From sequence record OK254198.1: 64,000 nucleotides of DNA; one strand, 5' to 3'. The DNA comes from Escherichia phage PSD2001. The notes below the pieces were generated by a model. It was not told the origin of the DNA, searched no databases, and was given only the letters and a program-made list of their open reading frames with translations. Positions 3,399 to 61,163 of the stretch are shown in pieces. A program made the position numbers and the translations under genes. How positions within the stretch are numbered: position 1 is the stretch's first letter; each line of letters starts with the position of its first letter.

Positions 3399-3440
3399 CC
3401 CTAAATGAAAAAAGGTCCACCCGAAGGCAGACCTTTTGAA

Positions 3441-3824
3441 TTACTCTAATGTTAACAGATACTTAGTCTGAAAGAAAACTCCAACGATATCGTCCAGAGT
3501 CGATTGAATAGCCTTGGGTACAACTTTATAGACTCTTTCCGAGCTTTTAATCATTTCATCTAAAAACAAAATTGTATCTTTCGGCAAGTCCGAGGCGGAC
3601 GGTAATGCAGCTTTGTATTGTTTCCCGCTGTAACCTAACCATTGCTCACTGAACTGGTCGAGTGGACCTTGGATTTCTGTGAAGTAGAAATCATAAGCTT
3701 TATGGCGGGCGTAACTTTTGGTTTCAAGATGGGCGGACTTAAAATAAGCCAAAGAGACTAACAACCACCCAATATATGAATCCACCTCAGACCCACGACC
3801 CGTTACGAAATCATCAAATTTCAT
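3441..3824 (-). CDS. Hypothetical protein (position of T4 rI.-1)
   Basis: 127 aa ORF directly downstream of rI-like gene. Confidence 0.55.
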   Translation of the reverse strand: MKFDDFVTGRGSEVDSYIGWLLVSLAYFKSAHLETKSYARHKAYDFYFTEIQGPLDQFSEQWLGYSGKQYKAALPSASDLPKDTILFLDEMIKSSERVYKVVPKAIQSTLDDIVGVFFQTKYLLTLE

Positions 3825-4107
3825 CTTCCAATTTTACCTTCATTAATTTAGCGTACTCGACTGCAGCAGCCCGGCCATCAATTTGACATGTGATTTCATT
3901 TACACATTGACTCTTATTGTTCCATTCAGTTTTAATAAAAGCCCAAAATTGTTCGGACTGCTCGACGCTGGGTTCTTTGAATTGCGAATAGATTTGCATC
4001 GCACTATCTGCATACTGGGTAAATTTACCATCTGTAGCAGAGGACATATTTGGGCCTAAACAGCCCATTAGTAATAGACTTAGAGAAAGTCCTCGAATAA
4101 GGTCCAT
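3814..4107 (-). CDS. rI: Lysis-inhibition regulator RI-like (antiholin), signal-anchored
   Basis: 97 aa from internal ATG with SD AAGGAG; hydrophobic N-term; C-terminal 'SVEQSEQFWAF...EYAKLMKVKLE' resembles T4 RI as recalled; sits next to tk as in T4. Confidence 0.7.
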   Translation of the reverse strand: MDLIRGLSLSLLLMGCLGPNMSSATDGKFTQYADSAMQIYSQFKEPSVEQSEQFWAFIKTEWNNKSQCVNEITCQIDGRAAAVEYAKLMKVKLEDEI

Positions 4108-4181
4108 AAAGGACTCCTTATTGTTGGTCATGATTACGCTTTGCAGCCTTAACATAGCGGAATACTAGTTAGTAACTGTAT

Positions 4182-4457
4182 TTATAATCTTTTAAATTTG
4201 AAACAATACATTGCAAATAAATCAGAAAAATGTCTATCAACCCATATTCTTTGCACTGGACTAGTAACAGTCAGCATATAATGTGATTTTTGTAAATTTA
4301 TTCCATTTTTATTTGGGCATTCTTTATTAACAGAATGATACGTGCTTGCTACTATTTCAATTTCCCTTTCATATCTCTCGCTATCTGTTTGTGTGGGGAT
4401 AAATGCAATCCCGGCAATAACAAAAATAGAGATATACGCCCAAATCTTATATATCAT
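4182..4457 (-). CDS. Hypothetical membrane-anchored protein
   Basis: 91 aa; N-terminal TM segment 'IWAYISIFVIAGIAFIP'. Confidence 0.5.
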   Translation of the reverse strand: MIYKIWAYISIFVIAGIAFIPTQTDSERYEREIEIVASTYHSVNKECPNKNGINLQKSHYMLTVTSPVQRIWVDRHFSDLFAMYCFKFKRL

Positions 4458-4464
4458 AAGGACC

Positions 4465-5037
4465 TCAGCTTGTCAATTCGAGCCAATGTTTCCTGCATAA
4501 AGATACGTACGATTCATTCCCACCGACCAATACTTGCTCGCCGTCCTTCACAGCAGCACCGTCGATTACTCGAGTGGTCATGGTTGCTTTCCGGCCGCAA
4601 TGACAGACGCCCTTTAATTCAACCAGTTTATCCGAAATAGCCAGAAGTCTGGCCGAACCGGGAAATAATTGACCCCGAAAATCTGTTCTTAACCCGTAAC
4701 ACATAACGGGGATATTGTAATTATCGACCACTTGAGCTAACTGGTCAATTTGCTCTGGTAACAAAAATTGAGCTTCATCGACCAGGACACAATGGATATC
4801 CTTTTGAGACTCGGCCCATTTATAGAATTCAAACAGGTTCATGTCGGCCGTTACCAGGTTTGCTTCCTGGCTAATACCGATGCGTGATTTAATTTCGCCT
4901 TCCGAGTCCCGATTATCAATAACAGGTTTTAGCAAAAGCACACTCATTCCACGCTCTTTATAGGAATAAGCTGCAGTCAGCAATGAAGCTGTTTTGCCTG
5001 CATTCATTGCTGCGTAATGATAAATTAAACTCGCCAT
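4465..5037 (-). CDS. tk: Thymidine kinase
   Basis: 190 aa; P-loop 'AAMNAGKTASLL', 'VLVDEAQF', C-terminal Cys cluster 'CHCGRKAT...SLCRKH' typical of type II thymidine kinases. Confidence 0.95.
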   Translation of the reverse strand: MASLIYHYAAMNAGKTASLLTAAYSYKERGMSVLLLKPVIDNRDSEGEIKSRIGISQEANLVTADMNLFEFYKWAESQKDIHCVLVDEAQFLLPEQIDQLAQVVDNYNIPVMCYGLRTDFRGQLFPGSARLLAISDKLVELKGVCHCGRKATMTTRVIDGAAVKDGEQVLVGGNESYVSLCRKHWLELTS

Positions 5038-5046
5038 ATCACCTTC

Positions 5047-5232
5047 TTATTCTGTAATACTTTCCAGATAATTTTCTAAATCGTCTGAAGCCTTATTAAG
5101 GGCTTCTAGCGCTTTATAATAGTCTTCACGGGAGTAATATTCTGTATGAAGTTCTTCGTCGTATTCGCTTTTAGCATCAACAACAGTTTCAATCATATCC
5201 AGAATTTTATTTTTCTGTTCTTTAGTAATCAT
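5047..5232 (-). CDS. Hypothetical small acidic protein (tandem paralog 1)
   Basis: 61 aa; N-term 'TKEQKNKILDMIE' parallels 'SKEQKDKLFELIHE' of next gene. Confidence 0.5.
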   Translation of the reverse strand: MITKEQKNKILDMIETVVDAKSEYDEELHTEYYSREDYYKALEALNKASDDLENYLESITE

Positions 5233-5240
5233 AATATACC

Positions 5241-5426
5241 TTAAAGAGTATTCACATAAGCAATTAATTTGTTTTCTTTCTCATCAAACCGATTAGCAAA
5301 TTCTTCCTGATGTTCGGCATCTATCGGGCCATATTCATCATAAAAAGCGTTTGCTTCCGTATGCTCATCCAAAAGCTCATGAATAAGCTCAAACAATTTA
5401 TCTTTTTGTTCTTTACTTAGGCTCAT
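5241..5426 (-). CDS. Hypothetical small acidic protein (tandem paralog 2)
   Basis: 61 aa from internal ATG preceded by SD AAAGGTG. Confidence 0.5.
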   Translation of the reverse strand: MSLSKEQKDKLFELIHELLDEHTEANAFYDEYGPIDAEHQEEFANRFDEKENKLIAYVNTL

Positions 5427-5635
5427 AACCATTGCACCTTTAAACAATATTCATCTACGTGTTGGACACGTTTGTTTTTGTCAATAAAAGTATATTCAAC
5501 ATACTCGCCGATATACCACTTATCTACATTGTGAGGACTTTTTATAGGACACTTGGTTACCCGTGTTTCGGACCAGTGTCGAATAATTGTAGCTTTATTT
5601 TTAGGGTCAAACGGATGTGGGTAATGTGCTTTCAT
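5423..5635 (-). CDS. Hypothetical protein
   Basis: 70 aa ORF, overlaps neighbours by a few nt. Confidence 0.5.
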   Translation of the reverse strand: MKAHYPHPFDPKNKATIIRHWSETRVTKCPIKSPHNVDKWYIGEYVEYTFIDKNKRVQHVDEYCLKVQWL

Positions 5636-6086
5636 AATCCACCACTATCAAATCAATATCAGGAGTAAACATATCAATTAACCGGGAAACCTTATCCCAA
5701 TCACCACCTGCAATACCACATCCAATCCTGGGAATATAAATCACGGGCTTGAACAAAAGTGATTCTGCTTGTCGATTTAATTCTATCATGCAATTTACTA
5801 AAGCGCCATAATCCAGATTTGGACCCGGTTCATACTGTGTATAAAGGTTATAGCACATACCAAATCCAGTTGGCTTATGTTTAAAAACGATAGACATATC
5901 ACCGAGTTTTTCTCGGGAACCGTATTCAGTTGATGTCTTATCCATTTCTAAAATTTTTGGGTAAGCCTTTGCCAGTTGGCCAGCGACGCCTGAACCCATT
6001 GTGTGAAAGCAGTTGCAACCATGTGCAATAATATTGCCTTGAAGAAAGAGGGCGACGATATCGCCCTTAATATAGTTAACAATCAT
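5607..6086 (-). CDS. Macro-domain protein (putative ADP-ribose binding/processing)
   Basis: 159 aa; 'GDIVA...AHGCNCFHTMGSGVAGQLAKAYP' and 'IPRIGCGIAGGDW' match the two glycine-rich macro-domain motifs. Confidence 0.65.
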   Translation of the reverse strand: MIVNYIKGDIVALFLQGNIIAHGCNCFHTMGSGVAGQLAKAYPKILEMDKTSTEYGSREKLGDMSIVFKHKPTGFGMCYNLYTQYEPGPNLDYGALVNCMIELNRQAESLLFKPVIYIPRIGCGIAGGDWDKVSRLIDMFTPDIDLIVVDYESTLPTSV

Positions 6087-6442
6087 TTAGAGTTCAATCC
6101 TCTGTTATAGGAATCGACTAACCTGTCCACCATACTGGTGCAGGCCGCCTTATATTTTGCACTTGATAAAATGCAATCCATTTCAAATAATTTCTTTTCA
6201 TATTTGTTGGATAATACATTCTTTTTCAAAAGCGTATGTTCAACATCATTTTGACCATCTTTATAGGCTGCGGTGAGCTTGGCACTGAACTGGATTATAC
6301 AATCCACATTGCTTGCTGCACAATAATCTTTAGCCGTCCTCGTTGCATATTCTATGATGCTGTTGTTGTCGTCGCTCTGTACTGAAGCTATTCCTCCCAT
6401 GCTGAATACTAACCCTATGGCTAAAGTGATAACTCTTACCAT
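6083..6442 (-). CDS. Hypothetical secreted protein
   Basis: 119 aa; N-terminal signal peptide 'MVRVITLAIGLVFSMGGIASVQS'; four Cys. Confidence 0.55.
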   Translation of the reverse strand: MVRVITLAIGLVFSMGGIASVQSDDNNSIIEYATRTAKDYCAASNVDCIIQFSAKLTAAYKDGQNDVEHTLLKKNVLSNKYEKKLFEMDCILSSAKYKAACTSMVDRLVDSYNRGLNSK

Positions 6443-6444
6443 TT

Positions 6445-6987
6445 TTAATCCACCGTTTTTAATAGGCCTCGTGATTTTAAGTAGTTAGCTTTTTCTAGGA
6501 CCTGTGAAGCATACTTATTACCAGCTTTCACATTCCACCCTGCGTTATATGATGATAGTGTTTTCCTTATATCCCCCTTATGAATATTCAACCAGTATGA
6601 AAGCTCAATATAAGCCCAGCGTGCACTGTTCTCTCTCTTGCTTATCATCTTGATTATTTCTTTATCTGTCATTGTCCACCCAACCTGTTTCACGCGTTCG
6701 CGGACGGTTGGAAGATAATTTTGGAATATACCATATGCGTGATGCTTATCTTTATTTAATCCAGTATTAACCCCAGCAGAACTTTCCTGCCAGGTTAAAC
6801 CAGCCATGATATATCCCAAACCATTATGTTGGTGCGGATTTTCTTTGTACTTACCATTTTTCTGGAACTGTTCTCCAAACGCATAAGCATATTGGAGGTT
6901 CTCCATTTGTTCATTACTGAAAGTAGGCTCTACGCTATGGGCAGACATACTAACTGTCAATAGTAAGGTGGCGATTACTTTTTTCAT
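6445..6987 (-). CDS. Secreted lytic transglycosylase-like protein (SLT/lysozyme-like domain)
   Basis: 180 aa; signal peptide 'MKKVIATLLLTVSMSAHS'; 'TWQESSAG...AYGIFQ' matches SLT catalytic E-S ... A-x-G-hh-Q motif. Confidence 0.65.
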   Translation of the reverse strand: MKKVIATLLLTVSMSAHSVEPTFSNEQMENLQYAYAFGEQFQKNGKYKENPHQHNGLGYIMAGLTWQESSAGVNTGLNKDKHHAYGIFQNYLPTVRERVKQVGWTMTDKEIIKMISKRENSARWAYIELSYWLNIHKGDIRKTLSSYNAGWNVKAGNKYASQVLEKANYLKSRGLLKTVD

Positions 6988-6997
6988 GAATTCCCCA

Positions 6998-7456
6998 TTA
7001 GATATAAATCACTTTTGTGCTAATTTTTCCTTCCAGACGATTAGAGTTAACAAACGCCATACGGCAACACATGGTCGGAGACTTCCCAGGAAGAGCTGGG
7101 TTAACTGTCATTCCTAACCATAGGTTCTTGTCTGTGATTTCCAGACGAAGTGGACGATAGTTCACATTCGGGTCAATTTGTGCTTCAACTTCCGGGAGTG
7201 GTTTCATCTCCAGGAATTCAACGATTTCTTTTACATGTGGTGTGATTTTTCCAAACAAATCAAAAACATATTGTTCATCAATTTCACGTTGGATTGCACG
7301 GTCCAACAGGTGTGGACTGTACTTAATGAAGAATGCTTCAAGGCCTGCTTCTTTACAAGCCTTGTTGATAGCATTATTAATTTTGAGGAACTCCGTTTCA
7401 AAAATGCGACGAAGTTTATTGCGGCGAATGTAAACACTTGAATCGATAGTAGTCAT
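6998..7456 (-). CDS. regB: RegB-like endoribonuclease
   Basis: 152 aa from ATG with SD AAGGAG; 'IRRNKLRRIFETEF...KYSPHLLDRAIQREIDEQYVFDLF...LRLEITDKNLWLG' closely parallels T4 RegB as recalled. Confidence 0.85.
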   Translation of the reverse strand: MTTIDSSVYIRRNKLRRIFETEFLKINNAINKACKEAGLEAFFIKYSPHLLDRAIQREIDEQYVFDLFGKITPHVKEIVEFLEMKPLPEVEAQIDPNVNYRPLRLEITDKNLWLGMTVNPALPGKSPTMCCRMAFVNSNRLEGKISTKVIYI

Positions 7457-7461
7457 GATTA

Positions 7462-7512
7462 TCTCCTTTTGTTTGATGGGATAATCATAACTCATTTCAA
7501 TCTGCTTGTACA

Positions 7513-7514
<2 letters not shown>
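7462..7514 (-). promoter_or_regulatory. PeSS-like early promoter (-35 GTGTACA, -10 TATGAT, TATCCCATC arm)
   Basis: Minus-strand read GTGTACAAGCAGATTGAAATGAGTTATGATTATCCCATCAAAC upstream of regB start. Confidence 0.55.
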
Positions 7515-8092
<578 letters not shown>

Positions 8093-8096
<4 letters not shown>

Positions 8097-8326
8097 TTCA
8101 CTTCCTCGCCAGTTGCGATATCATATTCTACCAAACGAAGGCCTTCAGTCCAACCTTGCACGGAGATATAGGTAGACGGGTAAATCATTTCTTTACCATT
8201 CCACCGACCGCCATCCCAGACTTCCAGAAAGTCTTGTTCACCTGGTCCATTAAACCATTCAACAAATCTTTTCAGAGCTTCATCAGAGCCTTCAATTGTC
8301 AATTTAGACATATTTTTTCCAGTCAC
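8093..8326 (-). CDS. Hypothetical protein
   Basis: 77 aa ORF. Confidence 0.45.
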
Positions 8327-8600
8327 TAATTAATCGCACATCCTGGTCATAGGTCAGGAGGCTACGAGTGATAATACCCTTACACGGTCCAGAAATAAAT
8401 TCCAGAGTAAAGTAAGGAACCTGTTTCATTAATCGGATGCTTGGCGCATGGCATCTAAAACGAGAGCCCTTAAAGGGCCCTGTCATGAATACATATTCTA
8501 ATGGATAGAAATAAGCATATTCGAAATTTGTAGTAAGGTCCTCTCTTCGGACCTTACGTGAGAAATAACAGAACTCAAAAAGTTCTTCATCAGTCATCAT
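8304..8600 (-). CDS. Hypothetical protein
   Basis: 98 aa ORF. Confidence 0.5.
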   Translation of the reverse strand: MMTDEELFEFCYFSRKVRREDLTTNFEYAYFYPLEYVFMTGPFKGSRFRCHAPSIRLMKQVPYFTLEFISGPCKGIITRSLLTYDQDVRLISDWKKYV

Positions 8601-9142
8601 TGCATTCCTATCACAAAGAACAGAGGACGTGTGGTTTCATTGGTTTCTTCACATGATGCACGACAGCAATGTTGCACTACCTTTATATGGGCATCATAAA
8701 TCTTGTCCATATCAGGAGCTTTAATAGGTTCATCAATTATATACAATACGCGTGAAAGCGCAAGGCCACGGAATTTAGAACCTTCATTACCAATAAAGCT
8801 ACGTAATGAATCATGAAATAGGCGATGGCGAATATCTTCGTCATTAAAACGAATAAAATCATTTTTGATAGAATTGTATGAAACTCTGGCATATGCTGAA
8901 GTATTGGACAAGACAATTACCGTGCCACCGTTATAAAGCCAATTGTAAGCAAAATCAGTTACTGCGGTAGACTTACCTGATTGTCGCCCGCCATCCATAC
9001 GGAGTGTGCAGTATTCTTTGAGCAAGACTTCCATTGGAGGAATATAACAATCGGTCTTACAAAGTTCTTCTATTCGAGCATCAGAATGGTGGGTAAAAGC
9101 ATTCATCAGGGATAGATAAGGTCCAGTTAAAAAAGTTCTCAT
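8597..9142 (-). CDS. Predicted P-loop NTPase
   Basis: 181 aa; Walker A 'DGGRQSGKST', Walker B-like 'VLYIIDEP'. Confidence 0.55.
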   Translation of the reverse strand: MRTFLTGPYLSLMNAFTHHSDARIEELCKTDCYIPPMEVLLKEYCTLRMDGGRQSGKSTAVTDFAYNWLYNGGTVIVLSNTSAYARVSYNSIKNDFIRFNDEDIRHRLFHDSLRSFIGNEGSKFRGLALSRVLYIIDEPIKAPDMDKIYDAHIKVVQHCCRASCEETNETTRPLFFVIGMQ

Positions 9143-9304
9143 ATTGTTTCTCTTAAGGTTTTGGGCCATTCCTTGGCACATAATTCATCCGTGCATCCGT
9201 ATGTAAACCCTTTACCGCACTTGGGCTCGACCTTATTACAGGTAGGGAAAGGTCCATCACTCAGAGGACACGAAGTTCATGAGGAGAGGGTCGGCTTGCC
9301 TTTA

Positions 9305-9604
9305 TTAGAAAGAACCAGAACCTTTAATTGTGTTCTGGCGACCTTTATTTTCCAATTCAGAATGGTCAATTTCATATGCTTGTGCCACGCCAAAAGCCTT
9401 TTTAACTTTAGCTAAAGAACCTTTAGATGTAACAATATTAAAAGTATTACCTTTGGTAAAATCAACCAAATCCACTTGCACACCCTGTTTACCGAGGCTT
9501 GCTACAATGGCATCAACATATTGTTGGTCTAAATTGCCTTGAACCCCAATTTGAAATGCTTTAGGAGCTTTGGCTTCAGTAATAAATTCTTGATAAGTTT
9601 TCAT
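9305..9604 (-). CDS. Internal-protein-like, capsid-targeting N-terminus (MKTYQEFITE)
   Basis: 99 aa; first 10 aa match the T4 internal-protein CTS decapeptide ending in I-x-E (gp21 site); preceded by PeSS promoter. Confidence 0.7.
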   Translation of the reverse strand: MKTYQEFITEAKAPKAFQIGVQGNLDQQYVDAIVASLGKQGVQVDLVDFTKGNTFNIVTSKGSLAKVKKAFGVAQAYEIDHSELENKGRQNTIKGSGSF

Positions 9605-9609
9605 TTTAT

Positions 9610-9662
9610 TCTCTCTAAGTTGATGGGATAATTATGCACTATCCCATCAAAAAGTAAACAGT
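9610..9662 (-). promoter_or_regulatory. PeSS-like early promoter (-35 TGTTTAC, -10 CATAAT inside GATGGGATAG/TATCCCATC inverted repeat)
   Basis: Inverted repeat brackets -10; 17-nt spacer. Confidence 0.6.
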
Positions 9663-9925
9663 TATGCTTTACCGCCAGAAACAATACCAAAGGTCTCAAA
9701 GTCCCATTCAATATCGTCAACATCAACTTTCTTACCAGCAACCACGAATGCGATTTCGCGACGTTTTGCATAGGTGACAATTTCTTTACCATCGCCGCCA
9801 AAGAAAGAATAACCATTGCGCTTCATGGTGCCAAAGTCTTCAGCATCACCAGCGAATGCGCGGACTTTAAAGGAACCAGCAGGAGCTTTGGCAGATTCAG
9901 TAATAAATTCTTGATAAGTTTTCAT
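9662..9925 (-). CDS. Internal-protein-like, capsid-targeting N-terminus (MKTYQEFITE)
   Basis: 87 aa from internal ATG; 35 nt at the 5' end identical to 9305..9604 gene start; mature region differs. Confidence 0.7.
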   Translation of the reverse strand: MKTYQEFITESAKAPAGSFKVRAFAGDAEDFGTMKRNGYSFFGGDGKEIVTYAKRREIAFVVAGKKVDVDDIEWDFETFGIVSGGKA

Positions 9926-9973
9926 TTTATATTCCATTGTTTGGTTGATAAAATCATTATACAACCTTTTTAG

Positions 9974-10390
9974 TTAAGCGTACACAGCTTTCCCATAGTA
10001 TTTGTACCAGGTAGGTTTTTGAGAAATTTTCTCATTCAGTCTGGCTTGACTGATTTCAATTGACCAGATTGATGGTTGATAATCATTTTTCCATTCATCA
10101 GGAATATCACTTAAATCTTGGGTAGAAATATCTTTTATGTTAAACCCTCGCTTTAAACATTCTGCAATAAGTTCTTGATGACGGTTTTTAAGGAACAAAA
10201 GTTTATCATAAAAGAAGGTAACATGACCAGTCCCTAAAAGAAAAGATGATGGAATTTTAAAGTCAGAAACCTTTTTACCATTTTGTACATGCTTACGAAC
10301 AGCACCAAAAACGCGAGGAAGTTCACGATATTCAGCCATAAGATGTTGGTCAGCAAGTTCAGATACCAGGGTCAAATTAATGCGAGTCAT
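9974..10390 (-). CDS. denV: Endonuclease V (pyrimidine-dimer DNA glycosylase)
   Basis: 138 aa from '[31 protein letters not shown]...', near-identical to T4 EndoV N-terminus as recalled. Confidence 0.95.
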
Positions 10391-10418
10391 GTTTGTTCTC
10401 CTATGTTTGTAGGAGAAC

Positions 10419-10447
10419 ATTATATCACACGTATCGTGGAAGTAAAC
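10419..10447 (-). promoter_or_regulatory. T4-type early promoter upstream of denV (-35 GTTTAC, -10 TATAAT)
   Basis: Minus-strand GTTTAC-17nt-TATAAT about 30 nt upstream of ATG. Confidence 0.5.
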
Positions 10448-10449
10448 TG

Positions 10450-10752
10450 TTATTTACCTTTAATTGCTTTAGCTGCTTCGATAGCCGCTTGCTGAAGGTC
10501 ATCCATAGACATACCGAACTTAGAAGCAAAGTTATCAATTTTCTTTTCGACAGAATTCAAAGGCTTGGCCTGTTTACCTTCATTAGCGCCAGGGAGAGCT
10601 AGAATACGCTCTTTGTCAATATAAAGGCTTACAAGTTTCTTACGGTCTTTATCTGGTAAATCATGAAATGAATGGGCCTTTTTATTTACAGCGGCTTCTA
10701 ATTTACCTGCACTTACGCGCGCTTCGGTGATAAATTCTTTATACGTTTTCAT
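10450..10752 (-). CDS. Internal protein II-like ([23 protein letters not shown])
   Basis: 100 aa; CTS N-terminus; located between e and denV exactly where T4 carries ipIII/ipII. Confidence 0.75.
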
Positions 10753-11278: not shown

Positions 11279-11734
11279 TTATCCGAAAATTTGAGTCATT
11301 ACCTTGTACATCGATTTGCCCATCACATACTGCCATTGACTCGGTTTAATCAGAGCAAATGCATCGAACTCTGGAACTGTACTACCATCCGGAAAGGTAT
11401 GATAGGCAGAGCATTTACTATGTCTGAACTGCTCATGCTCGACCGGGACCGTGTACAAAAACAGGTGAAGGTTTTTATTATCTGAATAACGGAACTCACC
11501 CAGGTCTTTTAAGAATGCTGGGTCATATTGGGTAAATCCAGTTTCTTCTTCGGTTTCACGAATAGCAGCTTCAATCGGGGATTCACCAGCTTCAACGTGA
11601 CCCTTAGGGATGTCCCATTTGTGCGCAGGCGCACCTGGTTTACGAGAACCGGTCACACGACCCATGAATAACTCTTTATCTTCAGTCATGAAAATAATGC
11701 CAGCAGATAATTCCTTCACTTTCTTACTCATCAT
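11279..11734 (-). CDS. nudE: Nudix hydrolase
   Basis: Nudix box 'GHVEAGESPIEAAIRETEEETG'; adjacent to e as in T4. Confidence 0.85.
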   Translation of the reverse strand: MMSKKVKELSAGIIFMTEDKELFMGRVTGSRKPGAPAHKWDIPKGHVEAGESPIEAAIRETEEETGFTQYDPAFLKDLGEFRYSDNKNLHLFLYTVPVEHEQFRHSKCSAYHTFPDGSTVPEFDAFALIKPSQWQYVMGKSMYKVMTQIFG

Positions 11735-11960: not shown

Positions 11961-12541
11961 TTACGGCATTCCTCAATAAAAGAATTTAATGTATTTTTCT
12001 TAGCGATATCGTCGTATACCTTTTTAACTTTAGAAATACGAAAAGGTACTTCAATAGCCATAGTCCATAAAAATGATGCAATAAGTCCAACAGCAGCAGA
12101 AGAAATGCACGCGCCCATTACAGCCACAGGTGCTTCATTTTTACCTGTCAAGAAAAACAACAGGATTGGTAAAAATAAGATTCCAGCCCACACATAAAAC
12201 CTGGAACAAATTAACTTATCAAATTCATCTTTCCAGGTACGAAATCCATATTTCTTGCTATAAGAAATTAATGGGTCGGGTGTCTGTTCTTTGAGTGGTT
12301 CCGGTTGATACCCATTAACAATATATCCCATTTTATATTCCTTAATTAAAAGCTCTTTCACATGACGATTGCATCGCGACCAATCAACGTTTTCCACCTT
12401 GATTCCTTCATCACCATCGTCAAGGTTCGCCCAATATTTTTTGGTAATCATAAATTCATCTCTTGATACAATTATACCTGCATTTTCTGCCCGACGGATG
12501 AAGTTTACATCAACACCCATACAACCAGGTTCATACAGCAT
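11957..12541 (-). CDS. Hypothetical membrane protein, C-terminal ...LNSFIEECRK tail family
   Basis: 194 aa; two C-proximal TM helices then basic tail shared with 15640..15993 and 15980..16339. Confidence 0.55.
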   Translation of the reverse strand: MLYEPGCMGVDVNFIRRAENAGIIVSRDEFMITKKYWANLDDGDEGIKVENVDWSRCNRHVKELLIKEYKMGYIVNGYQPEPLKEQTPDPLISYSKKYGFRTWKDEFDKLICSRFYVWAGILFLPILLFFLTGKNEAPVAVMGACISSAAVGLIASFLWTMAIEVPFRISKVKKVYDDIAKKNTLNSFIEECRK

Positions 12542-13227
12542 TACCAGCCCTCCATAGGAAATTCCAGATATACTTGAGCATTAACGCGGATTTCATTGGT
12601 GATTTTATTAACGCGGTCAGTTTTACGAGATACGCGACCAAACCAGCGCCAACCATTACCAACCGTTTTTGTTCCAGTATGCCAGGTCTGCCAGTTGAAT
12701 TCACACAACGTGCGGTCAGGAGCTTCTTGAACTAAAAGTTCACCCGCCTTGATTTTTTCCAGAACTTCCTGGTGCCACTGGCGATAGATAAGTTCGCCAT
12801 CAGGAATCTGACTGAATTCTGAAGTTCCCAGAGCAAAATGAGTAGGGCAAACAGAAGCGTTAACCAGACCCAGGATGTGTTCAGAATGGTAACGAGGGTT
12901 ATCATAATCAGGTTGTCCTGCTGTAATAAAATGTTGTCCTGCTGGAATATCTGGACGTGGTACATCATCATGGTGATACCCAGGGATAGCAGGATACCAA
13001 CCAGGCATCAACATATGGACGCGAGAGTCAAATACAACATCACGATTGGTCCAGTCCAGTGGTAATGCAGCAATAAAGCTACGGGTAATTAAACCGCCTT
13101 TATCCCAGGCAAAACTTAAATCACAATTAAAGAACATCGGTTCATTTTTGATTTCGTCATTACTGACATATTGAGCAAATTGACCAACTTCACGCATTTG
13201 ACTATTAAAAGTTTTTGAGCTATTCAT
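12541..13227 (-). CDS. Hypothetical protein, His/Trp-rich (GYHHDD motif)
   Basis: 228 aa from ATG with SD GAGGA; no confident family. Confidence 0.55.
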   Translation of the reverse strand: MNSSKTFNSQMREVGQFAQYVSNDEIKNEPMFFNCDLSFAWDKGGLITRSFIAALPLDWTNRDVVFDSRVHMLMPGWYPAIPGYHHDDVPRPDIPAGQHFITAGQPDYDNPRYHSEHILGLVNASVCPTHFALGTSEFSQIPDGELIYRQWHQEVLEKIKAGELLVQEAPDRTLCEFNWQTWHTGTKTVGNGWRWFGRVSRKTDRVNKITNEIRVNAQVYLEFPMEGW

Positions 13228-13237
13228 GATATTTTCC

Positions 13238-13474
13238 TCAGTATTCTTCATCATATTCAAAGTCTTCATCAAACTCGGGTTCCAGAGAAATTTCTTCTTC
13301 CGGGTGGAATTCACAAGGGAAGTATTCCACTTCACCACAATCGGCGTCATAGGACTGGAAATCAATTTGGATTACGGTTTCGGATACAACAATAACTTCA
13401 GCAACCAAGTCACCTGCAATTTCCATTCCAACTTTAACATCTTTAGCTTTGATAGTATTCATTTTATTCTCCAA
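13238..13474 (-). CDS. Hypothetical highly acidic small protein
   Basis: 78 aa; C-term 'EPEFDEDFEYDEEY'; PeSS promoter directly upstream. Confidence 0.55.
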   Translation of the reverse strand: MENKMNTIKAKDVKVGMEIAGDLVAEVIVVSETVIQIDFQSYDADCGEVEYFPCEFHPEEEISLEPEFDEDFEYDEEY

Positions 13475-13487
13475 TTTGGTAACTCAG

Positions 13488-13538
13488 TATGGAATCATTA
13501 TGCACTGACTCCATACTGATGTACACACTTATTTTGTG
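13488..13538 (-). promoter_or_regulatory. PeSS-like early promoter (-35 GTGTAC, -10 CATAAT, inverted repeat TCAGTATGGA/TCCATACTGA)
   Basis: Same architecture as copy at 21..68. Confidence 0.6.
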
Positions 13539-14488
13539 AAAGGACGAATTAAATGTTGGTTAGCCTTAAAGCGTTTAACATAGTCTTCGCGACCCAGGGT
13601 GTTGTACATATTAACCACTTCCTGGTAATGTTCCCAGGCATACTCGCGGAACCATCCAGAAGTAATGGAGGTACAGACTTTTTCCAGCGCAATATGGAAG
13701 CTCACAGATGGAGAGATATTGAACTCATTAGGAACCTGCGAACGCTCCAGAGCGAGCACACATGCTTCTTCATAAACCCCTGCCAGTTTAATAATCTCAG
13801 GGAGTGCTTCAAATTTTTCACGCGAGGTCATGACTTCTGAATCATCCTTCATATAAAACTTATATGCAGGCTTATCAGCAAGCGCCACAGCCTCGTGGAT
13901 GGAGTCATGGTCAAGGGTGTAGATTGTATCATTAAAGAAAGTTTTCTTGCCCACGTCTAGTTTAGGGTGACTGTATGACAGTGTTTCTGCCTGACGCTGC
14001 AGCATGATTTTCTGCAGTTCATCATTAAGAACAACACCCTTATTGCGAAGATAATTAATATGACTCATGGTCTTCAGGAAGAATGGGTTGTTCTTCAGGT
14101 AACGATGAGACAATTTAATCGCCAGACAAATATCAGGCGTCGCCCAATAGAAACCTGTAAGACGGTCTTTCTGAATATTTGCCTTCGCATATTTGAGCAG
14201 ACGATAACTTGAGGTGAAATCTTCGTCTTGAAGCTCACCAGTAATTTCTCGTACGTTGGTCAGGGCACGGACAATATAAGCTTCAAAATAGGTTTCTTTG
14301 CCATTGTACATACATTTAAAAGCTTGGACATCAGGGTTATCTACAGGAACATGAGCACCGAACATACGTGCTTTAAAGTGGTTCCAAGAACCCTGGTCAG
14401 CGATAAAGTCCCAATCAGAGTTTTCAATTTTCTGACTTTCAATCAGACCAGCGTTATGTAATGCACGAGAACCAATAACTAACATCAT
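13529..14488 (-). CDS. Hypothetical protein, possible nucleotidyltransferase-like N-terminus
   Basis: 319 aa; 'LVIGSRALHNAG...SDWDF' loosely resembles GS...DxD; weak. Confidence 0.55.
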   Translation of the reverse strand: MMLVIGSRALHNAGLIESQKIENSDWDFIADQGSWNHFKARMFGAHVPVDNPDVQAFKCMYNGKETYFEAYIVRALTNVREITGELQDEDFTSSYRLLKYAKANIQKDRLTGFYWATPDICLAIKLSHRYLKNNPFFLKTMSHINYLRNKGVVLNDELQKIMLQRQAETLSYSHPKLDVGKKTFFNDTIYTLDHDSIHEAVALADKPAYKFYMKDDSEVMTSREKFEALPEIIKLAGVYEEACVLALERSQVPNEFNISPSVSFHIALEKVCTSITSGWFREYAWEHYQEVVNMYNTLGREDYVKRFKANQHLIRPFTK

Positions 14489-14502
14489 AATATTTTCCTC
14501 AT

Positions 14503-14548
14503 TAGTTGACGGGATAATGATACTACGTTTCTTTAGACTTGTACACTA
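14503..14548 (-). promoter_or_regulatory. PeSS-like early promoter (-35 GTGTACA, -10 TATCAT, TATCCCGTCAAC arm)
   Basis: Minus-strand read upstream of 13529..14488. Confidence 0.5.
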
Positions 14549-14590
14549 AATTTCTGCACAAAGTCCTCCTATCACATCCTTGTGATAATT

Positions 14591-14824
14591 TTAGCAGCTA
14601 CTCGGATACCAGATTTTACCATCGGCACGAGCAACGAAGGTACGACCAGCTTCTTCACCATAACAAGAGCTGTTCAACCAGTCTTCAAGACGGACTTCGC
14701 CGTCATAATCATCAAGCTCAACACCAAAATCTTGAGCAGAAGCCATATCTTTTACTTTCTTATACAGTGCAGCCAGTTCAAGGGCAGCTTTTTCTAATTC
14801 AGCATGTTCAACAGCAGTAATCAT
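14591..14824 (-). CDS. Acidic small protein, W-x-SS-C tail paralog D
   Basis: 77 aa; '...EDWLNSSCYGEE...YPSSC'. Confidence 0.55.
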   Translation of the reverse strand: MITAVEHAELEKAALELAALYKKVKDMASAQDFGVELDDYDGEVRLEDWLNSSCYGEEAGRTFVARADGKIWYPSSC

Positions 14825-14833
14825 TTTATCACC

Positions 14834-15052
14834 TTAGCAAGACATAGAGGAGTTAAACCAGAAACCTTCACCTTCTGGAATACAATATTCATCACGAACC
14901 CATTCATAATCGTCATATTCCGGACTGGAAGCTGGAATATATTCTTCACCCCCGGCGTGAAAGTGTTCGCCGGTTTCATCCGCCGCAGTCAGACCTTCAC
15001 AGATTAGTGCACGGATTTGTTTTTCAATTTCTTTAACAGTTTTAGCAGTCAT
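14834..15052 (-). CDS. Acidic small protein, W-x-SS-C tail paralog C
   Basis: 72 aa; ends 'GFWFNSSMSC'. Confidence 0.55.
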   Translation of the reverse strand: MTAKTVKEIEKQIRALICEGLTAADETGEHFHAGGEEYIPASSPEYDDYEWVRDEYCIPEGEGFWFNSSMSC

Positions 15053-15061
15053 TTTATTTCC

Positions 15062-15343
15062 TTAGCATTCAGAAGAGGAAGACACCCAACCGCCTTTTTC
15101 CAGGCTGGTAGTGTAATCATGTTGGTTTACAATAGCGTACTGGGCTTCGCCGTATTCTTCCCAATGGGCAAGGTCAGCTTTCAGGGCGCCAGGAGAATAA
15201 TAGTCACCGCCCATACCGCGAGCAGGGTATATATTAAAATGAGTCTCATATTTGTCTGCAATTTCCTCGGCACGACGAATAGCTTTATGGATGTCATTTA
15301 CTGCGTTAGCCAGTTCTTTATTTTTACGGTAATCATTCATCAT
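15062..15343 (-). CDS. Acidic small protein, W-x-SS-C tail paralog B
   Basis: 93 aa; 'EEIADKYETHF...GGWVSSSSEC'. Confidence 0.55.
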   Translation of the reverse strand: MMNDYRKNKELANAVNDIHKAIRRAEEIADKYETHFNIYPARGMGGDYYSPGALKADLAHWEEYGEAQYAIVNQHDYTTSLEKGGWVSSSSEC

Positions 15344-15352
15344 AACGTTTCC

Positions 15353-15643
15353 TTAGCACATTGCCGAAGAGGAGACCCAAGCACCAACTGTAACGACACC
15401 GTTTTCAACTTCACCGCCGTTGTTTTCAATTTCATCTTTAAACCACTGGGAGCATTCATAACCGACAGGATAATATGTACGGCCTGAACCATAATCACCG
15501 GTACCAAATTGGATACCATATTCATCTGCGATTTCTTCACAGTGTTTTTCAATTTCAGAGGTCTTATTTAGAAGAGAATAGATAGCTTTTTCTGCAGATT
15601 TCTCATCATAATACTTGGGGATAGCAATTTCAATTTTATTCAT
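15353..15643 (-). CDS. Acidic small protein, W-x-SS-C tail paralog A
   Basis: 96 aa; 'EEIADEYGIQF...GAWVSSSAMC'. Confidence 0.55.
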   Translation of the reverse strand: MNKIEIAIPKYYDEKSAEKAIYSLLNKTSEIEKHCEEIADEYGIQFGTGDYGSGRTYYPVGYECSQWFKDEIENNGGEVENGVVTVGAWVSSSAMC

Positions 15644-15993
15644 GATTTACATTCCTTAATAAAGGTTTCAAGGTCATTACGTTTTGTTTTGTTCAGGAAC
15701 TTATTATACTCAGCCATTGCTGAAGCATATCTCTTCCGACTAGGAGCATTCACGGCGTTTGTGTGACAGATATCATACACAACAGGGATAAAATAAGACA
15801 CAACAGCCGGAGCGATTATCATAAAGAAACCCATCTCAATAGGCATCACTCCTTCGATTGCAGCCATAACCGTGGTCATTACCAGACCAACCAAACCACC
15901 AAGCATGGCAGTGACAATCCCGAATAATAAATTGGCACCAATATCATATTCAGCCAATTGATAAACATGCGAGGCAAGACTAGGCCGTTCCAT
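15640..15993 (-). CDS. Small two-TM membrane protein, ...LETFIKECKS tail
   Basis: 117 aa from ATG with SD AAGGAGG; two TM helices. Confidence 0.55.
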   Translation of the reverse strand: MERPSLASHVYQLAEYDIGANLLFGIVTAMLGGLVGLVMTTVMAAIEGVMPIEMGFFMIIAPAVVSYFIPVVYDICHTNAVNAPSRKRYASAMAEYNKFLNKTKRNDLETFIKECKS

Positions 15994-16339
15994 TACGAAC
16001 CTCCTTAATAAATTCTTCGGCACATTTAATTTTGTGCTCTTCTTGTAGGGAAACACATTTTTGTTCCCACTCTTTAACTCGCCCACGATATCCTTTATTC
16101 ATATGATTTTGATGCCACACGTTTATCAATATCATACCCAGGACTGTAATAAAAGGTGCTGCAATTATTAGTGACCAGGCGACTCCGACACTAATGATAT
16201 CCATATCCCCACAAAGCACCATCATTATAACCCCAACGATGCACATGGACAAAGCTCCAAATGGAGGCATCAAGTCTTTATCAATCTTGTTCGCGTATAC
16301 AAATTTTTCTGGTTTACTTGGCAGATATAACGTTCGCAT
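15980..16339 (-). CDS. Small two-TM membrane protein, ...EEFIKEVRNG tail
   Basis: 119 aa from internal ATG with SD AAGGGG; two TM helices. Confidence 0.55.
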   Translation of the reverse strand: MRTLYLPSKPEKFVYANKIDKDLMPPFGALSMCIVGVIMMVLCGDMDIISVGVAWSLIIAAPFITVLGMILINVWHQNHMNKGYRGRVKEWEQKCVSLQEEHKIKCAEEFIKEVRNGTA

Positions 16340-18862: not shown

Positions 18863-19288
18863 TTATTTTTGAGCTTTGCGGAAGTTGGAAGCATATGACT
18901 GAACAACAGTCTTTTTGATATCATGGGTGTTAACCAGAACATCAATCAGAGCGCGGCGGGCAGCATTATCATTCATATCAATTTCTGCAAATGCCTGGAA
19001 GCAAATTTCACGAGCGTTACCAGATTTGGACTGGATTTTTTCTTCTTTAACTTCTTCAATTGGGAATTCAATCATTTCAGCTTTGATTAATTCAATGATG
19101 GATTCTTTTGACTGTTTGGTGTTTACCTTCAGTTCAGAATTAAGGGACTTAGCGATGGCAACAATCTGGGTTGAAGTCAGATGGATAAGTGCATCTTCAC
19201 GAATGCAGATTTCGCATACTTCGTCAGCAACCATTTTGTTGGTGATGCGGGTAACAGAGAATGCAGAGGTCAGGGTCAGAAAGTTCAT
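18863..19288 (-). CDS. Hypothetical protein, C-terminal 'AARRALID...VQSYASNFRK' domain
   Basis: 141 aa from internal ATG with SD GGAGAAA; paralogous C-terminus to 17966..18409. Confidence 0.55.
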   Translation of the reverse strand: MNFLTLTSAFSVTRITNKMVADEVCEICIREDALIHLTSTQIVAIAKSLNSELKVNTKQSKESIIELIKAEMIEFPIEEVKEEKIQSKSGNAREICFQAFAEIDMNDNAARRALIDVLVNTHDIKKTVVQSYASNFRKAQK

Positions 19289-23418: not shown

Positions 23419-24109
<691 letters not shown>

Positions 24110-24110
<1 letters not shown>

Positions 24111-60027: not shown

Positions 60028-61033
60028 ATTCACTAACTAATGCAATCCAAACGTGTCTTAATGTTTCTCTTACATTTGCGATGAGTTGCTTTTTAACTTC
60101 AACAGGATTTTCCGCCAGGGTCAATTCAAGGCCTTCGCGCCCGGCTTCTTCCAGAATATCTTGAACTGTTAGCCCCATTACCTTTCCAAAATCCTTCGGT
60201 GTTACTTCCCCAATTTTACTGATAACATTGTTGATACGGTTAACAGTCACATAATCAGTGAAATTCCACAGTAAATCCATATCATTTTGGCTCAGAACCA
60301 CTGCAGCCTTAATAGGCTTATCAGACTTTTTCTTTTCACTGAATTTAGAGTTCTTACATTTAATCGCTACACGCTCGCCGTTAGGTAACCATGCAGGAAC
60401 ATCAGGTTTTAATACAAATCCTTCAGCAGTGAATACTTTACCTTCCACCTTTGCATCAAAATCAGTGGTATTTGCTGTAGTCAATCCTGCGTTATCCACT
60501 GTAAAATTGTAATCAGGGACCACAGAATCCAGGTCATTAGGTAGCTTAATTAATTCTTCAAAACTACCTGTAGCCAGGCGCGGGGCAACTTTAAACTTAT
60601 GAATAATACAAAAGGCTTCCATAAGTGTGTCAGTCAGGACGGATTCAGAGCCATCTTCCTTAGTAACGCGGATATCAAACACATAGAAATCTTTATCGCC
60701 GTAATTCACATTCTTCTGAATACCTGTACCAGCAAACTCACCATAAATCTGATATGCCTGATAATTAATATCCTGCAAAAGTTTCTGCACAGATTTAATA
60801 GAATCTGCATAGTTCTTTAATACAATTTCATAACCATAGAAATCTTCTGCAGGTAGGATAGGTCCAGTGCGTTTCGCACATGTCACATTGTCTTGTTCAA
60901 TGATTAATGAAAAGTTGGTACCATGAATCTTCTCGCGAGCTACCCATTCACCGCTGGTGAAGCCTTGCAGGCGAATCTTTTCAATGAACTTGTTGTTATA
61001 GTGATTTTCAAGGCTGTTGTATTTCTTAAACAT
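60026..61033 (-). CDS. rnlB: RNA ligase 2
   Basis: 335 aa; '[19 protein letters not shown]...[12 protein letters not shown]' incl. ligase motif I K-x-H-G. Confidence 0.95.
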
Positions 61034-61163
61034 AATCTCTCACTTTTGATGTTATAAATATCATTATAAATTAGACCCACTATACTTTCTTTCTTTGAAA
61101 GGAATTAATAGTCGCAAAGGGGTCTAGAACCATTATACCACAATTTTATTTGAAGCAAAAAGG

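What the first reader, a model, noticed from the sequence alone, without database searches (positions are those of the whole stretch)
5607..6086. Macro-domain protein in the early region
The ORF carries both diagnostic glycine-rich macro motifs ('AHGCNCFHTMGSGVAGQL', 'IPRIGCGIAGGDW'). Macro domains bind or hydrolyse ADP-ribose adducts. In a T4-like phage this could reverse ADP-ribosylation, either host defensive modification (e.g. DarT-type DNA ADP-ribosylation) or the phage's own ADP-ribosyltransferase marks, or degrade ADP-ribose-derived immune signals.
Basis: partly seen in the sequence, partly recalled or inferred. Interest (0 to 1): 0.65.

Follow-up and report, generated by a model that had tools for sequence, protein, structure and literature searches.

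The report
Phage macrodomain that counters DarT defence
This is the T4-like phage gene tk.4 (recently named adfM), a small ADP-ribose-removing macrodomain enzyme that most likely strips the host DarT2 toxin's ADP-ribose marks off phage DNA; it is real but already largely explained.

Summary

The window is a VR7-like T-even phage (Gaprivervirus). The gene is the syntenic ortholog (vs | tk.4 | tk.3) of T4 tk.4, at 58% identity. A 2025 preprint showed T4 tk.4 is the only T4 gene needed to resist DarTG2 and named it adfM.

Three points add to this:
- The family lacks the DarG/TARG1 catalytic lysine. It has an invariant Gln84/Asn25 centre like SCO6735, a proven thymidine-ADPr hydrolase.
- It is only remotely related to PhiKZ "AdfM", which is DarG-type.
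- tk.4 exists as two ~58%-identical alleles that swap as a cassette among T-even genera. Only the T4 allele has been tested.

A conserved hairpin lies in codons 7-13. Interest is modest: this is a new member of a known kind.

The parts
5607..6086 (-). tk.4 / adfM coding sequence: 159 aa plus TGA stop; single macrodomain of the TARG1/ALC1-like class
5973..6026 (-). Loop-1 motif AHGCNCFHTMGSGVAGQL (residues 21-38). Contains invariant H22, G23, N25, C26 and G33. The N25 codon is 6012-6014.
   Evidence: H22 is invariant in 83/83 close relatives and 147/151 representatives; N25 is invariant in 83/83 and 151/151. N25 aligns with SCO6735 N27 (N27S nearly inactive) and PhiKZ AdfM N23 (N23A reduced).
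5835..5837 (-). Codon for Gln84, at the position of the catalytic Lys of DarG (K80) and TARG1 (K84) and of the essential Gln85 of SCO6735
   Evidence: HMMER profile alignments place Q84 opposite TARG1 K84 and opposite the K of Mtb/Taq DarG 'FPTK'. It aligns with the Q of SCO6735 and Bt_1257 'NMIGQ'. Invariant in 83/83 and 151/151 family members. SCO6735 Q85A/E is inactive.
5697..5735 (-). Loop-2 (diphosphate-binding) motif IPRIGCGIAGGDW (residues 118-130). G122 and G124 are invariant. A126 replaces TARG1 Asp125.
   Evidence: G124 aligns with SCO6735 G128 (G128E reduced activity).
6083..6086 (-). ATGA overlap: the tk.4 start codon overlaps the stop codon of the upstream gene vs, suggesting translational coupling
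   Evidence: ORF coordinates: vs 6083..6442, tk.4 5607..6086. T4 and VR7 have the same arrangement.
6098..6102 (-). GAGGA Shine-Dalgarno-like sequence 11 nt upstream of the ATG
   Evidence: Read directly from the sequence.
6049..6067 (-). Conserved GC-rich hairpin (AGGGCGAU-AUC-GUCGCCCU) in codons 7-13, followed by a U-rich tract; function unknown
   Evidence: Terminator-like hit. Predicted dG about -12.6 kcal/mol. Stems are nucleotide-identical in VR7, REP4, T4, QL01 and AV108 despite saturated synonymous divergence elsewhere. Absent in Klebsiella and Aeromonas homologs.
5607..5635 (-). 29-nt overlap of the tk.4 3' end (the 4-residue tail that the T4 allele lacks) with the start of tk.3
   Evidence: ORF coordinates. 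VR7 and REP4 show the same overlap, whereas T4 overlaps by only 4 nt. Residues 157-159 are disordered in the model.

Best explanation
The ORF is the Gaprivervirus ortholog of T4 tk.4/adfM. It is a stand-alone macrodomain ADP-ribosyl glycohydrolase made before or during phage DNA replication.

Proposed mechanism: when infection releases the host DarT2 toxin, DarT2 ADP-ribosylates thymidines in single-stranded phage DNA (TNTC motifs) and stalls replication. Tk.4 binds the ADP-ribose through its two glycine-rich loops and hydrolyses the thymine-ribose bond, releasing free ADP-ribose and restoring replicable DNA.

Catalysis does not use the Lys of DarG/TARG1. It most likely follows the SCO6735-type water-mediated mechanism. 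There, Gln (here Q84), held in place by Asn (here N25), positions the distal ribose.

Shown: the ORF, the fold, the class, orthology and synteny, the active-site residue pattern, and purifying selection. Taken from the literature for relatives: T4 tk.4 is needed against DarTG2 (genetics only), and SCO6735 cleaves dT-ADPr and needs Q85/N27. Inferred: that this 58%-identical allele does the same, and the chemistry.
For: - Identity and orthology: the window is 94-96% identical in DNA to VR25, VR7 and P896. The gene sits between vs and tk.3 as in T4. It is 58% identical over 155 aa to T4 Tk.4, E 8e-71.
- T4 genetics: tk.4 was the sole DarTG2-specific hit and the knockout is sensitised. T4 lacking adfA and adfN stays DarTG2-resistant, which predicted such a factor.
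- Active site: Q84 sits at the DarG K80 / TARG1 K84 / SCO6735 Q85 position. N25 matches SCO6735 N27, and G122/G124 match G126/G128. These residues are invariant in 83/83 and 151/151 homologs.
- SCO6735 biochemistry: it hydrolyses DarT-made dT-ADPr; Q85A is dead and N27S nearly dead.
- Selection: dN/dS 0.03.
- Independent precedent: PhiKZ AdfM, also a phage macrodomain, removes DarT2 ADPr from DNA in vitro.
Against: - No experiment exists for this allele. It shares only 58% identity with the tested T4 protein.
- The T4 evidence is a preprint and is genetic. Hydrolysis by T4 Tk.4 was inferred, not shown.
- The protein is acidic (pI 5.3) and lacks the SCO6735 DNA-contacting lysines K34 and K89 (here S32 and G88). 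It also lacks the long 'mobile loop' of SCO6735/Bt_1257. However, PhiKZ AdfM is equally acidic and acts on DNA.
- ALC1's non-catalytic macrodomain also has Gln at this position, though with Asp instead of the Asn. Gln alone therefore does not prove activity.
- SCO6735 and TARG1 also act on protein ADP-ribose, so substrate range is open.
Confidence: 0.68

Rival explanations
1. The enzyme's main substrate is not DNA but ADP-ribosylated protein (Glu/Asp-linked) or RNA. For example, it could counter other ADP-ribosylating defences or toxins (mRNA ADP-ribosylation of the CmdTAC type, RNA-end ADP-ribosylation), with anti-DarT2 activity only one facet or specific to the T4 allele.
For: SCO6735 and TARG1, the nearest characterised enzymes, also de-modify proteins. 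The protein is acidic and lacks the SCO6735 DNA-binding lysines. Two strongly diverged alleles are maintained side by side, which could reflect different targets. T-even phages are the targets of CmdTAC (abstract of PMC11618068).
Against: In T4 the only condition that made tk.4 conditionally essential was DarTG2. No experiment links any Tk.4 to RNA or protein substrates. The CmdTAC paper does not mention tk.4 and mentions macrodomains only in its reference list. All catalytic-centre residues are identical between the two alleles.
Confidence: 0.15
2. It is a metabolic 'phosphatase' or deacetylase, as many GenBank records say. That means an ADP-ribose-1''-phosphate phosphatase like yeast Poa1p, or an O-acetyl-ADP-ribose deacetylase like YmdB, clearing NAD-derived by-products.
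Confidence: 0.07
3. It protects mainly without catalysis. It could bind and block DarT2 (as the DarG C-terminal domain, AdfA and AdfB do, and as catalytically dead SCO6735 can), or it could sequester ADP-ribose-derived signalling molecules.
For: SCO6735 Q85A still inhibits DarT by interaction. AdfB works by binding DarT. ALC1's Gln-containing macrodomain is a pure binder (its non-catalytic status is my own knowledge).
Against: The whole catalytic constellation (H22, N25, Q84, G122, G124) is invariant across 151 representatives down to 33% identity. That is the pattern expected of an enzyme rather than a binder of a fast-evolving toxin. There is no DarG C-terminal domain (159 aa). No link to Thoeris or other signalling systems was found in the literature searched.
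Confidence: 0.07

Closest known systems
T4 Tk.4 = AdfM (anti-DarT factor Macrodomain; bioRxiv 10.1101/2025.11.20.689424)
   Same: Syntenic ortholog with the same vs | tk.4 | tk.3 arrangement and ATGA coupling to vs. Same length class, 58% identity, identical catalytic-centre residues, and the same conserved 5' hairpin.
   Different: It is the alternative allele: 159 versus 155 aa, a C-terminal tail overlapping tk.3 by 29 nt, and loop 2 reading GCGIAGGDW versus GAGIGKGNW. Identity falls to about 40-45% outside the first 50 residues. Only the T4 allele has been tested against DarTG2.
SCO6735 (Streptomyces coelicolor) and Bt_1257 (PDB 5E3B, 2FG1/2AFC): Gln-type ALC1-like macrodomains
   Different: Only 26-29% identical. 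The phage protein has a short post-Gln loop (8 residues against 13-14 on the same count). It lacks K34 and K89. It is acidic (pI 5.3 against 8.4-9.5). It is viral rather than cellular.
DarG / DarG2 antitoxin macrodomain (PDB 5M3I, 5M31, 7OMU)
   Different: Catalytic Lys80 is replaced by Gln. His22 is Asn in DarG. There is no C-terminal DarT-binding domain and no adjacent darT. The NCBIfam DarG equivalog scores 30 bits against a cutoff of 250.
PhiKZ gp104 'AdfM' (Cell Rep 2026, PMC13309987)
   Same: A stand-alone phage macrodomain that counters DarTG2. De-ADP-ribosylation of DarT2-modified DNA was shown in vitro, and the conserved Asn is important. It is acidic like Tk.4.
   Different: It belongs to a different clade. 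It is DarG-type with the 'FPTK' lysine (phmmer E 9e-25 to Mtb DarG, no hit to Bt_1257, TARG1 or Poa1p). Its pairwise score with the window protein is only 12 bits. The same name therefore covers two non-orthologous families.
Human TARG1/OARD1
   Same: Top Foldseek hit (E 9e-10, TM 0.72-0.81), with the same loop motifs (RMGAGIA, PRIGCGLD..W). It can also reverse DarT thymidine ADP-ribosylation.
   Different: TARG1 uses a Lys84/Asp125 dyad. Here those positions are Gln84 and Ala126.
Yeast Poa1p (PDB 6LFQ-6LFU)
   Different: Sequence similarity does not extend through the Gln84 strand. Poa1p is a metabolic phosphatase of the tRNA-splicing by-product. There is no evidence for that substrate in phage infection.
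AdfN (T4 30.3, NADAR), AdfA, AdfB
   Same: Functional analogues: phage anti-DarT factors. AdfN is likewise an 'orphan antitoxin-like' ADP-ribosyl hydrolase of T-even phages.
   Different: Unrelated folds. AdfN is specific for guanine-ADPr (DarT1) and does not counter DarTG2. AdfA and AdfB act by binding DarT.

Membership tests
Macro domain (Pfam PF01661) | Profile match above the curated gathering score | tested here: met
   35 bits against 22, E 1.5e-8, model positions 2-117 of 118.
Macro domain (Pfam PF01661) | Three-layer alpha/beta/alpha macro fold | tested here: met
Macro domain (Pfam PF01661) | ADP-ribose binding | not testable with these tools
   Only inferred, from conserved loop 1 and loop 2 glycines.
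TARG1/ALC1-like macrodomain class | Closest structural and sequence neighbours are TARG1, DarG, SCO6735/Bt_1257, ALC1 and Poa1p rather than MacroD or PARG types | tested here: met
T4 Tk.4 / AdfM orthologous group | Homology plus conserved position between vs and tk.3 in a T-even genome | tested here: met
   58% identity, E 8e-71. Same synteny in T4, VR7, REP4 and QL01.
T4 Tk.4 / AdfM orthologous group | Confers resistance to DarTG2 | not testable with these tools
   Shown only for the T4 allele, by knockout.
DarG (type II antitoxin, NCBIfam NF048014) | Equivalog profile score above cutoff | tested here: not met
   30.2 bits against a cutoff of 250. PADLOC DarG gives 29 bits over the macro part only.
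DarG (type II antitoxin, NCBIfam NF048014) | Catalytic lysine (K80) in the FPTK strand | tested here: not met
   Gln84 aligns with that Lys. Gln is invariant in the family.
DarG (type II antitoxin, NCBIfam NF048014) | C-terminal DarT-binding domain and adjacent darT gene | tested here: not met
   The protein is 159 aa with a single domain. The neighbours are vs and tk.3. Distant homologs are also in phage contexts without darT.
SCO6735/Bt_1257 subclass (Gln-type ALC1-like) | Gln at the catalytic-Lys position, positioned by the loop-1 Asn; conserved loop-2 Gly | tested here: met
   Q84, N25 and G124 align with Q85, N27 and G128 and are invariant.
SCO6735/Bt_1257 subclass (Gln-type ALC1-like) | Extended 'mobile loop', about 5 residues longer than in TARG1/DarG | tested here: not met
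   The post-Gln loop has 8 residues in the window protein and in 65/83 relatives, against 13-14 on the same count in SCO6735 and Bt_1257. About 14% of the broader representatives have loops of 12 or more.
SCO6735/Bt_1257 subclass (Gln-type ALC1-like) | DNA-contacting lysines K34 and K89; basic surface | tested here: not met
   S32 and G88 at those positions. pI 5.3 against 9.5.
Poa1p-like ADP-ribose-1''-phosphate phosphatase | Full-length similarity and phosphatase activity | tested here: inconclusive
   N-terminal similarity only by sequence. The fold is similar. Activity was not testable, and the residue at the Q84 position in Poa1p could not be aligned.

The most novel reading that the evidence does not exclude
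The two ~58%-identical tk.4 alleles, which are exchanged as a precise one-gene cassette among T-even genera, are specificity variants. Each would be tuned to different DarT2 lineages or to a different ADP-ribosylating defence (for example RNA- or protein-targeting ARTs). On this reading the Gln-type phage family would be an origin of anti-DarT activity independent of DarG, using a lysine-free mechanism. The conserved hairpin at the 5' edge would serve as the recombination or regulatory boundary of the cassette.
Probability: 0.2. Interest if true: 0.55.

Novelty: new member of a known kind. Interest (0 to 1): 0.3.

Why it matters
DarTG systems are widespread anti-phage toxin-antitoxin modules. 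T-even phages carry layered counter-measures against them: AdfA, AdfN and now Tk.4/AdfM. Recognising this ORF as the AdfM ortholog corrects the misleading 'phosphatase' label carried by many phage records. It also predicts that VR7-type phages are DarTG2-resistant.

The added points are directly testable and would refine how this anti-defence family is classified and how it evolves:
- The T-even AdfM family has a lysine-free, SCO6735-like centre.
- It is not related closely to PhiKZ 'AdfM'.
- It circulates as two swappable alleles.

None of this overturns current understanding.

Tried and rejected
1. DarG membership is rejected. The equivalog score is far below cutoff, the catalytic Lys is absent, and there is no C-terminal domain or darT neighbour.
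3. I searched plasmids for a genuine DarG to compare. Only stand-alone macrodomain proteins came back. DarG sequences were instead recovered from PDB alignments using PhiKZ gp104 as bait.
4. I tried to see which residue Poa1p has at the Gln84 position. The alignments stop at about residue 72, and the Poa1p structure paper is not in the library. This is unresolved.
5. MAFFT of the reference set mis-registered TARG1 and PhiKZ by 2-4 columns around the catalytic strand. I relied on HMMER profile alignments and the published structural equivalence.
6. Promoter scans found nothing. Sigma-70-like sites were not above shuffles (19 against 22.3), and no MotA-box middle promoter lies within 9 kb upstream. 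Expression is probably by read-through from upstream early promoters, but this is not established.
7. I looked for a cellular or DarT-linked context in distant homologs. Both contigs examined are phage-like.
8. Other ORFs overlap the locus: plus-strand 5459-5668 and 5759-5884, and the minus-strand alternative frame 5948-6082. I did not pursue them, because the tk.4 frame is well supported and they have no annotated counterpart in related phage records.

Full report
**1. The observation**

Window 5607-6086 holds, on the minus strand, an ATG-to-TGA ORF of 159 codons.

- The protein matches Pfam Macro (PF01661) over essentially the whole model, at 35 bits against a gathering score of 22.
- It matches PHROG 335 at E 6.9e-71.
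- It has 782 detectable database homologs and matches in 2,774 phage records.
- Against close alleles dN/dS is 0.03-0.05, so it is a functional, constrained gene.

**2. Which phage, which gene**

The surrounding DNA is 94-96% identical to Escherichia phages P896, VR25 and VR7 (Gaprivervirus, Tevenvirinae). The ORF corresponds to VR7 gene tk.4, which RefSeq annotates 'phosphatase'. It lies between vs (valyl-tRNA synthetase modifier) and tk.3, inside the minus-strand block rI-tk-tk.2-tk.3-tk.4-vs-vs.1-regB.

T4 has the same arrangement. The window protein is 58% identical to T4 Tk.4 over 155 residues.

The tk.4 start overlaps the vs stop (ATGA). A GAGGA lies 11 nt upstream. The 3' end overlaps tk.3 by 29 nt. 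I found no convincing promoter directly upstream: sigma-70-like sites were not above shuffles and no MotA box is nearby.

**3. Fold and class**

An AlphaFold2 model built on 83 homologs is confident (mean pLDDT 93.7, pTM 0.88; only residues 157-159 are disordered).

- Foldseek against the PDB ranks TARG1, Poa1p, Bt_1257 and DarG macrodomains first (E 1e-9 to 6e-7, TM about 0.7-0.8).
- A profile of the family hits the same set by sequence: Bt_1257 1.5e-19, TARG1 1.7e-16, SCO6735 1.1e-15, Poa1p 4.6e-15, DarG 5e-12 and 1.6e-10.

The protein is therefore a TARG1/ALC1-like macrodomain, not a MacroD/YmdB-type one.

**4. What is already known**

A bioRxiv preprint (10.1101/2025.11.20.689424) screened a T4 transposon library against DarTG2. 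It found tk.4 as the single significant hit and showed that a clean tk.4 knockout becomes DarTG2-sensitive. It named the gene adfM (anti-DarT factor Macrodomain). Enzymatic removal of ADP-ribose from DNA was proposed, not demonstrated.

This fits earlier work showing that T4 lacking adfA and adfN stays fully DarTG2-resistant (PMC11825919).

Independently, a Cell Reports 2026 paper named PhiKZ gp104 'AdfM'. It showed in vitro that this protein removes DarT2-made ADP-ribose from a TNTC oligonucleotide, with an Asn mutant impaired (PMC13309987).

**5. The active site is not DarG-like**

HMMER profile alignments place the family's Gln84 opposite the catalytic Lys84 of TARG1 and opposite the 'FPTK' Lys80 of Mtb and Taq DarG. 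Ala126 sits opposite TARG1 Asp125. The Lys (or Lys/Asp) machinery of DarG and TARG1 is therefore absent.

The same substitution defines SCO6735 and Bt_1257. The SCO6735 study (PMC9411070) reports the following:
- Gln85 occupies the Lys position.
- Q85A/E abolishes activity, N27S nearly abolishes it, and G128E reduces it.
- The enzyme efficiently cleaves DarT-made thymidine-ADPr.
- The authors propose a water-mediated mechanism in which Gln positions the distal ribose.

Using the SCO6735 sequence recovered from PDB alignments, the residues map as follows:

| SCO6735 | Window Tk.4 |
|---|---|
| H24 | H22 |
| N27 | N25 |
| Q85 | Q84 |
| G126 | G122 |
| G128 | G124 |

N25, Q84, G122 and G124 are invariant in 83/83 close relatives and in 151/151 sequences (the window protein plus 150 representatives, 33-78% identical to it) of a family with 1,137 clusters at E<=1e-30. 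H22 is invariant in the first set and present in 147/151 of the second.

The phage family differs from SCO6735 and Bt_1257 in three ways:
- The post-Gln 'mobile loop' is short: 8 residues, as in TARG1, rather than 13-14.
- The DNA-contacting lysines K34 and K89 are S32 and G88.
- The protein is acidic (pI 5.3 against 9.5). PhiKZ AdfM is also acidic (pI 5.05), so acidity does not exclude DNA as the substrate.

**6. Two different 'AdfM' families**

PhiKZ gp104 is a bona fide DarG-type macrodomain. It keeps the motif FPTKDNWRNPS, scores E 9e-25 to Mtb DarG, and has no hit to Bt_1257, TARG1 or Poa1p. Its pairwise phmmer score with the window protein is 12 bits. For comparison, the window protein scores 42 bits with Bt_1257, 35 with SCO6735 and 28 with Mtb DarG.

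The T-even Tk.4 family and the chimallivirus family thus share a name and a probable function but are distinct clades with different catalytic residues. This does not support Tk.4 being a DarG-derived 'orphan antitoxin'. Two distant homologs examined on long contigs are also in phage contexts without darT.

**7. Allele cassette**

Among T-even phages tk.4 occurs in two forms.
- The window form (159 aa) is found at 90% or higher protein identity in 317 phage records. These include many Tequatrovirus genomes (REP4, Sf24, slur04) as well as Gaprivervirus and Dhakavirus.
- The T4 form (155 aa) is found at 90% or higher identity in 224 records, with a further 159 at 80-90%.

Protein identities (%) for the region's genes:

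| Comparison | regB | vs.1 | vs | tk.4 | tk.3 | tk |
|---|---|---|---|---|---|---|
| REP4 (Tequatrovirus) vs T4 | 99 | 99 | 98 | 59 | 91 | 99 |
| REP4 vs window | 59 | 67 | 44 | 94 | 73 | 71 |

At the DNA level the diverged REP4/T4 block begins roughly 40-100 nt into tk.4 and ends at the tk.3 start. tk.4 is therefore exchanged as a one-gene cassette. That pattern is typical of arms-race genes, but it leaves open whether both alleles have the same target.

**8. Mechanism proposed**

Shown: the gene, its fold and class, its orthology to T4 tk.4, a conserved SCO6735-type catalytic constellation, and strong purifying selection.

Taken from the literature on relatives: the requirement of T4 tk.4 for DarTG2 resistance, and dT-ADPr hydrolysis by a Gln-type macrodomain.

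Inferred: this protein binds ADP-ribosylated thymidine on single-stranded phage DNA. It hydrolyses the base-ribose bond through a Gln84/Asn25-positioned, water-mediated mechanism. That releases ADP-ribose and allows replication in DarTG2 hosts. I put this at about 0.68.

Rival explanations:
- A broader or different macromolecular substrate such as protein or RNA ADP-ribose (0.15).
- The annotated metabolic phosphatase or deacetylase role (0.07).
- A mainly non-catalytic binder or sponge role (0.07).

Erasure of the phage's own Alt/ModA/ModB marks is unlikely. Those marks are arginine-linked, a linkage handled by ARH/DraG-type enzymes rather than macrodomains (my own knowledge).

**9. Verdict**

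The finding is real and correctly read. It concerns a gene whose macrodomain nature has long been annotated and whose anti-DarTG2 role was reported for the T4 ortholog in 2025. It is a new member (the alternative allele) of a known kind.

The residual novelty has three parts: the lysine-free active site, the non-orthology with PhiKZ AdfM, and the allele cassette with a conserved 5' hairpin. Interest is about 0.3.

Noticed in passing
window 6049-6067 (-), inside tk.4 codons 7-13: An 8-bp GC-rich hairpin (AGGGCGAU-AUC-GUCGCCCU, about -12.6 kcal/mol) is followed by a U-rich tract. The stems are nucleotide-identical, including the synonymous positions GGC and GCC, in VR7, REP4, T4 (the other allele), QL01 (Dhakavirus) and AV108 (Krischvirus). 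AV108 is only 49% identical in protein, and there G->A turns a U.G pair into U-A. The hairpin is absent from Klebsiella and Aeromonas homologs. One GenBank record (MT682709) annotates a 'terminator' under the tk.4 match. It could be an attenuator or terminator after vs, an RNA-stability element, or the 5' recombination boundary of the allele cassette.
   Followed up: partly
window 5607-6086 compared with L004 (REP4) 3501-3980 and L002 (T4) 3423-3890: tk.4 is a one-gene mosaic cassette. REP4 and T4 are 98-99% identical in regB, vs.1, vs and tk but 59% in tk.4. REP4's tk.4 is 94% identical to the window's although the flanking genes are only 44-73% identical. Both alleles are common: 317 and 224 phage records at 90% identity or higher.
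   Followed up: yes
window 5244-5426 (-) (tk.2) and 23910-24110 (-) (57A): These two small genes are only 70% and 61% identical to their VR7 counterparts, while their neighbours are 95-100% identical. They are further local mosaic patches in an otherwise VR7-like genome.
   Followed up: no
window 11282-11734 (-): A nudE Nudix hydrolase homolog, 96% identical to VR7's, lies about 5 kb upstream in the same transcription direction. T4 NudE is reported to hydrolyse ADP-ribose (my own recollection, not checked here). If so, it could dispose of the product of the macrodomain reaction.
   Followed up: no
window 23422-23874 (-): A homolog of T4 57B, 99% identical to VR7's. The HIDEN-SEQ preprint and earlier work identify T4 57B as Acb1, the anti-CBASS cyclic-nucleotide phosphodiesterase. 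RefSeq labels it 'RNA ligase'. It is a second anti-defence gene in the window.
   Followed up: no
window about 12000-16000 versus VR7 record 60683-61333: VR7ORF135c, annotated 'restriction endonuclease', gave no tblastn hit anywhere in the window. This accessory gene appears to be absent from this phage.
   Followed up: no
window 18866-19288 (-): A homolog of VR7ORF147c, 98% identical. The VR7 record notes similarity to a cytidine/deoxycytidylate deaminase. It is an accessory nucleotide-metabolism gene not present in T4's annotation of this region.
   Followed up: no
related proteins P0138-P0256; BFVD hits Q6J2P1, G0YPT3, A0A0N9S0X2: About 13% of the representative family members are 200-300 aa, with the macrodomain fused to an extra N- or C-terminal region. 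Examples are Acinetobacter phage 133 Tk.4 (245 aa) and Erwinia MM7 gp101 (260 aa). A Marseillevirus SNF2-macro protein also matches, resembling the ALC1 architecture.
   Followed up: no
window 4000-10500: Terminator-like hairpins are more frequent than in shuffles (10 found against 4.1 +/- 2.2). One example is a strong site at 8481-8463 (-). Sigma-70-like promoter matches are not enriched.
   Followed up: no
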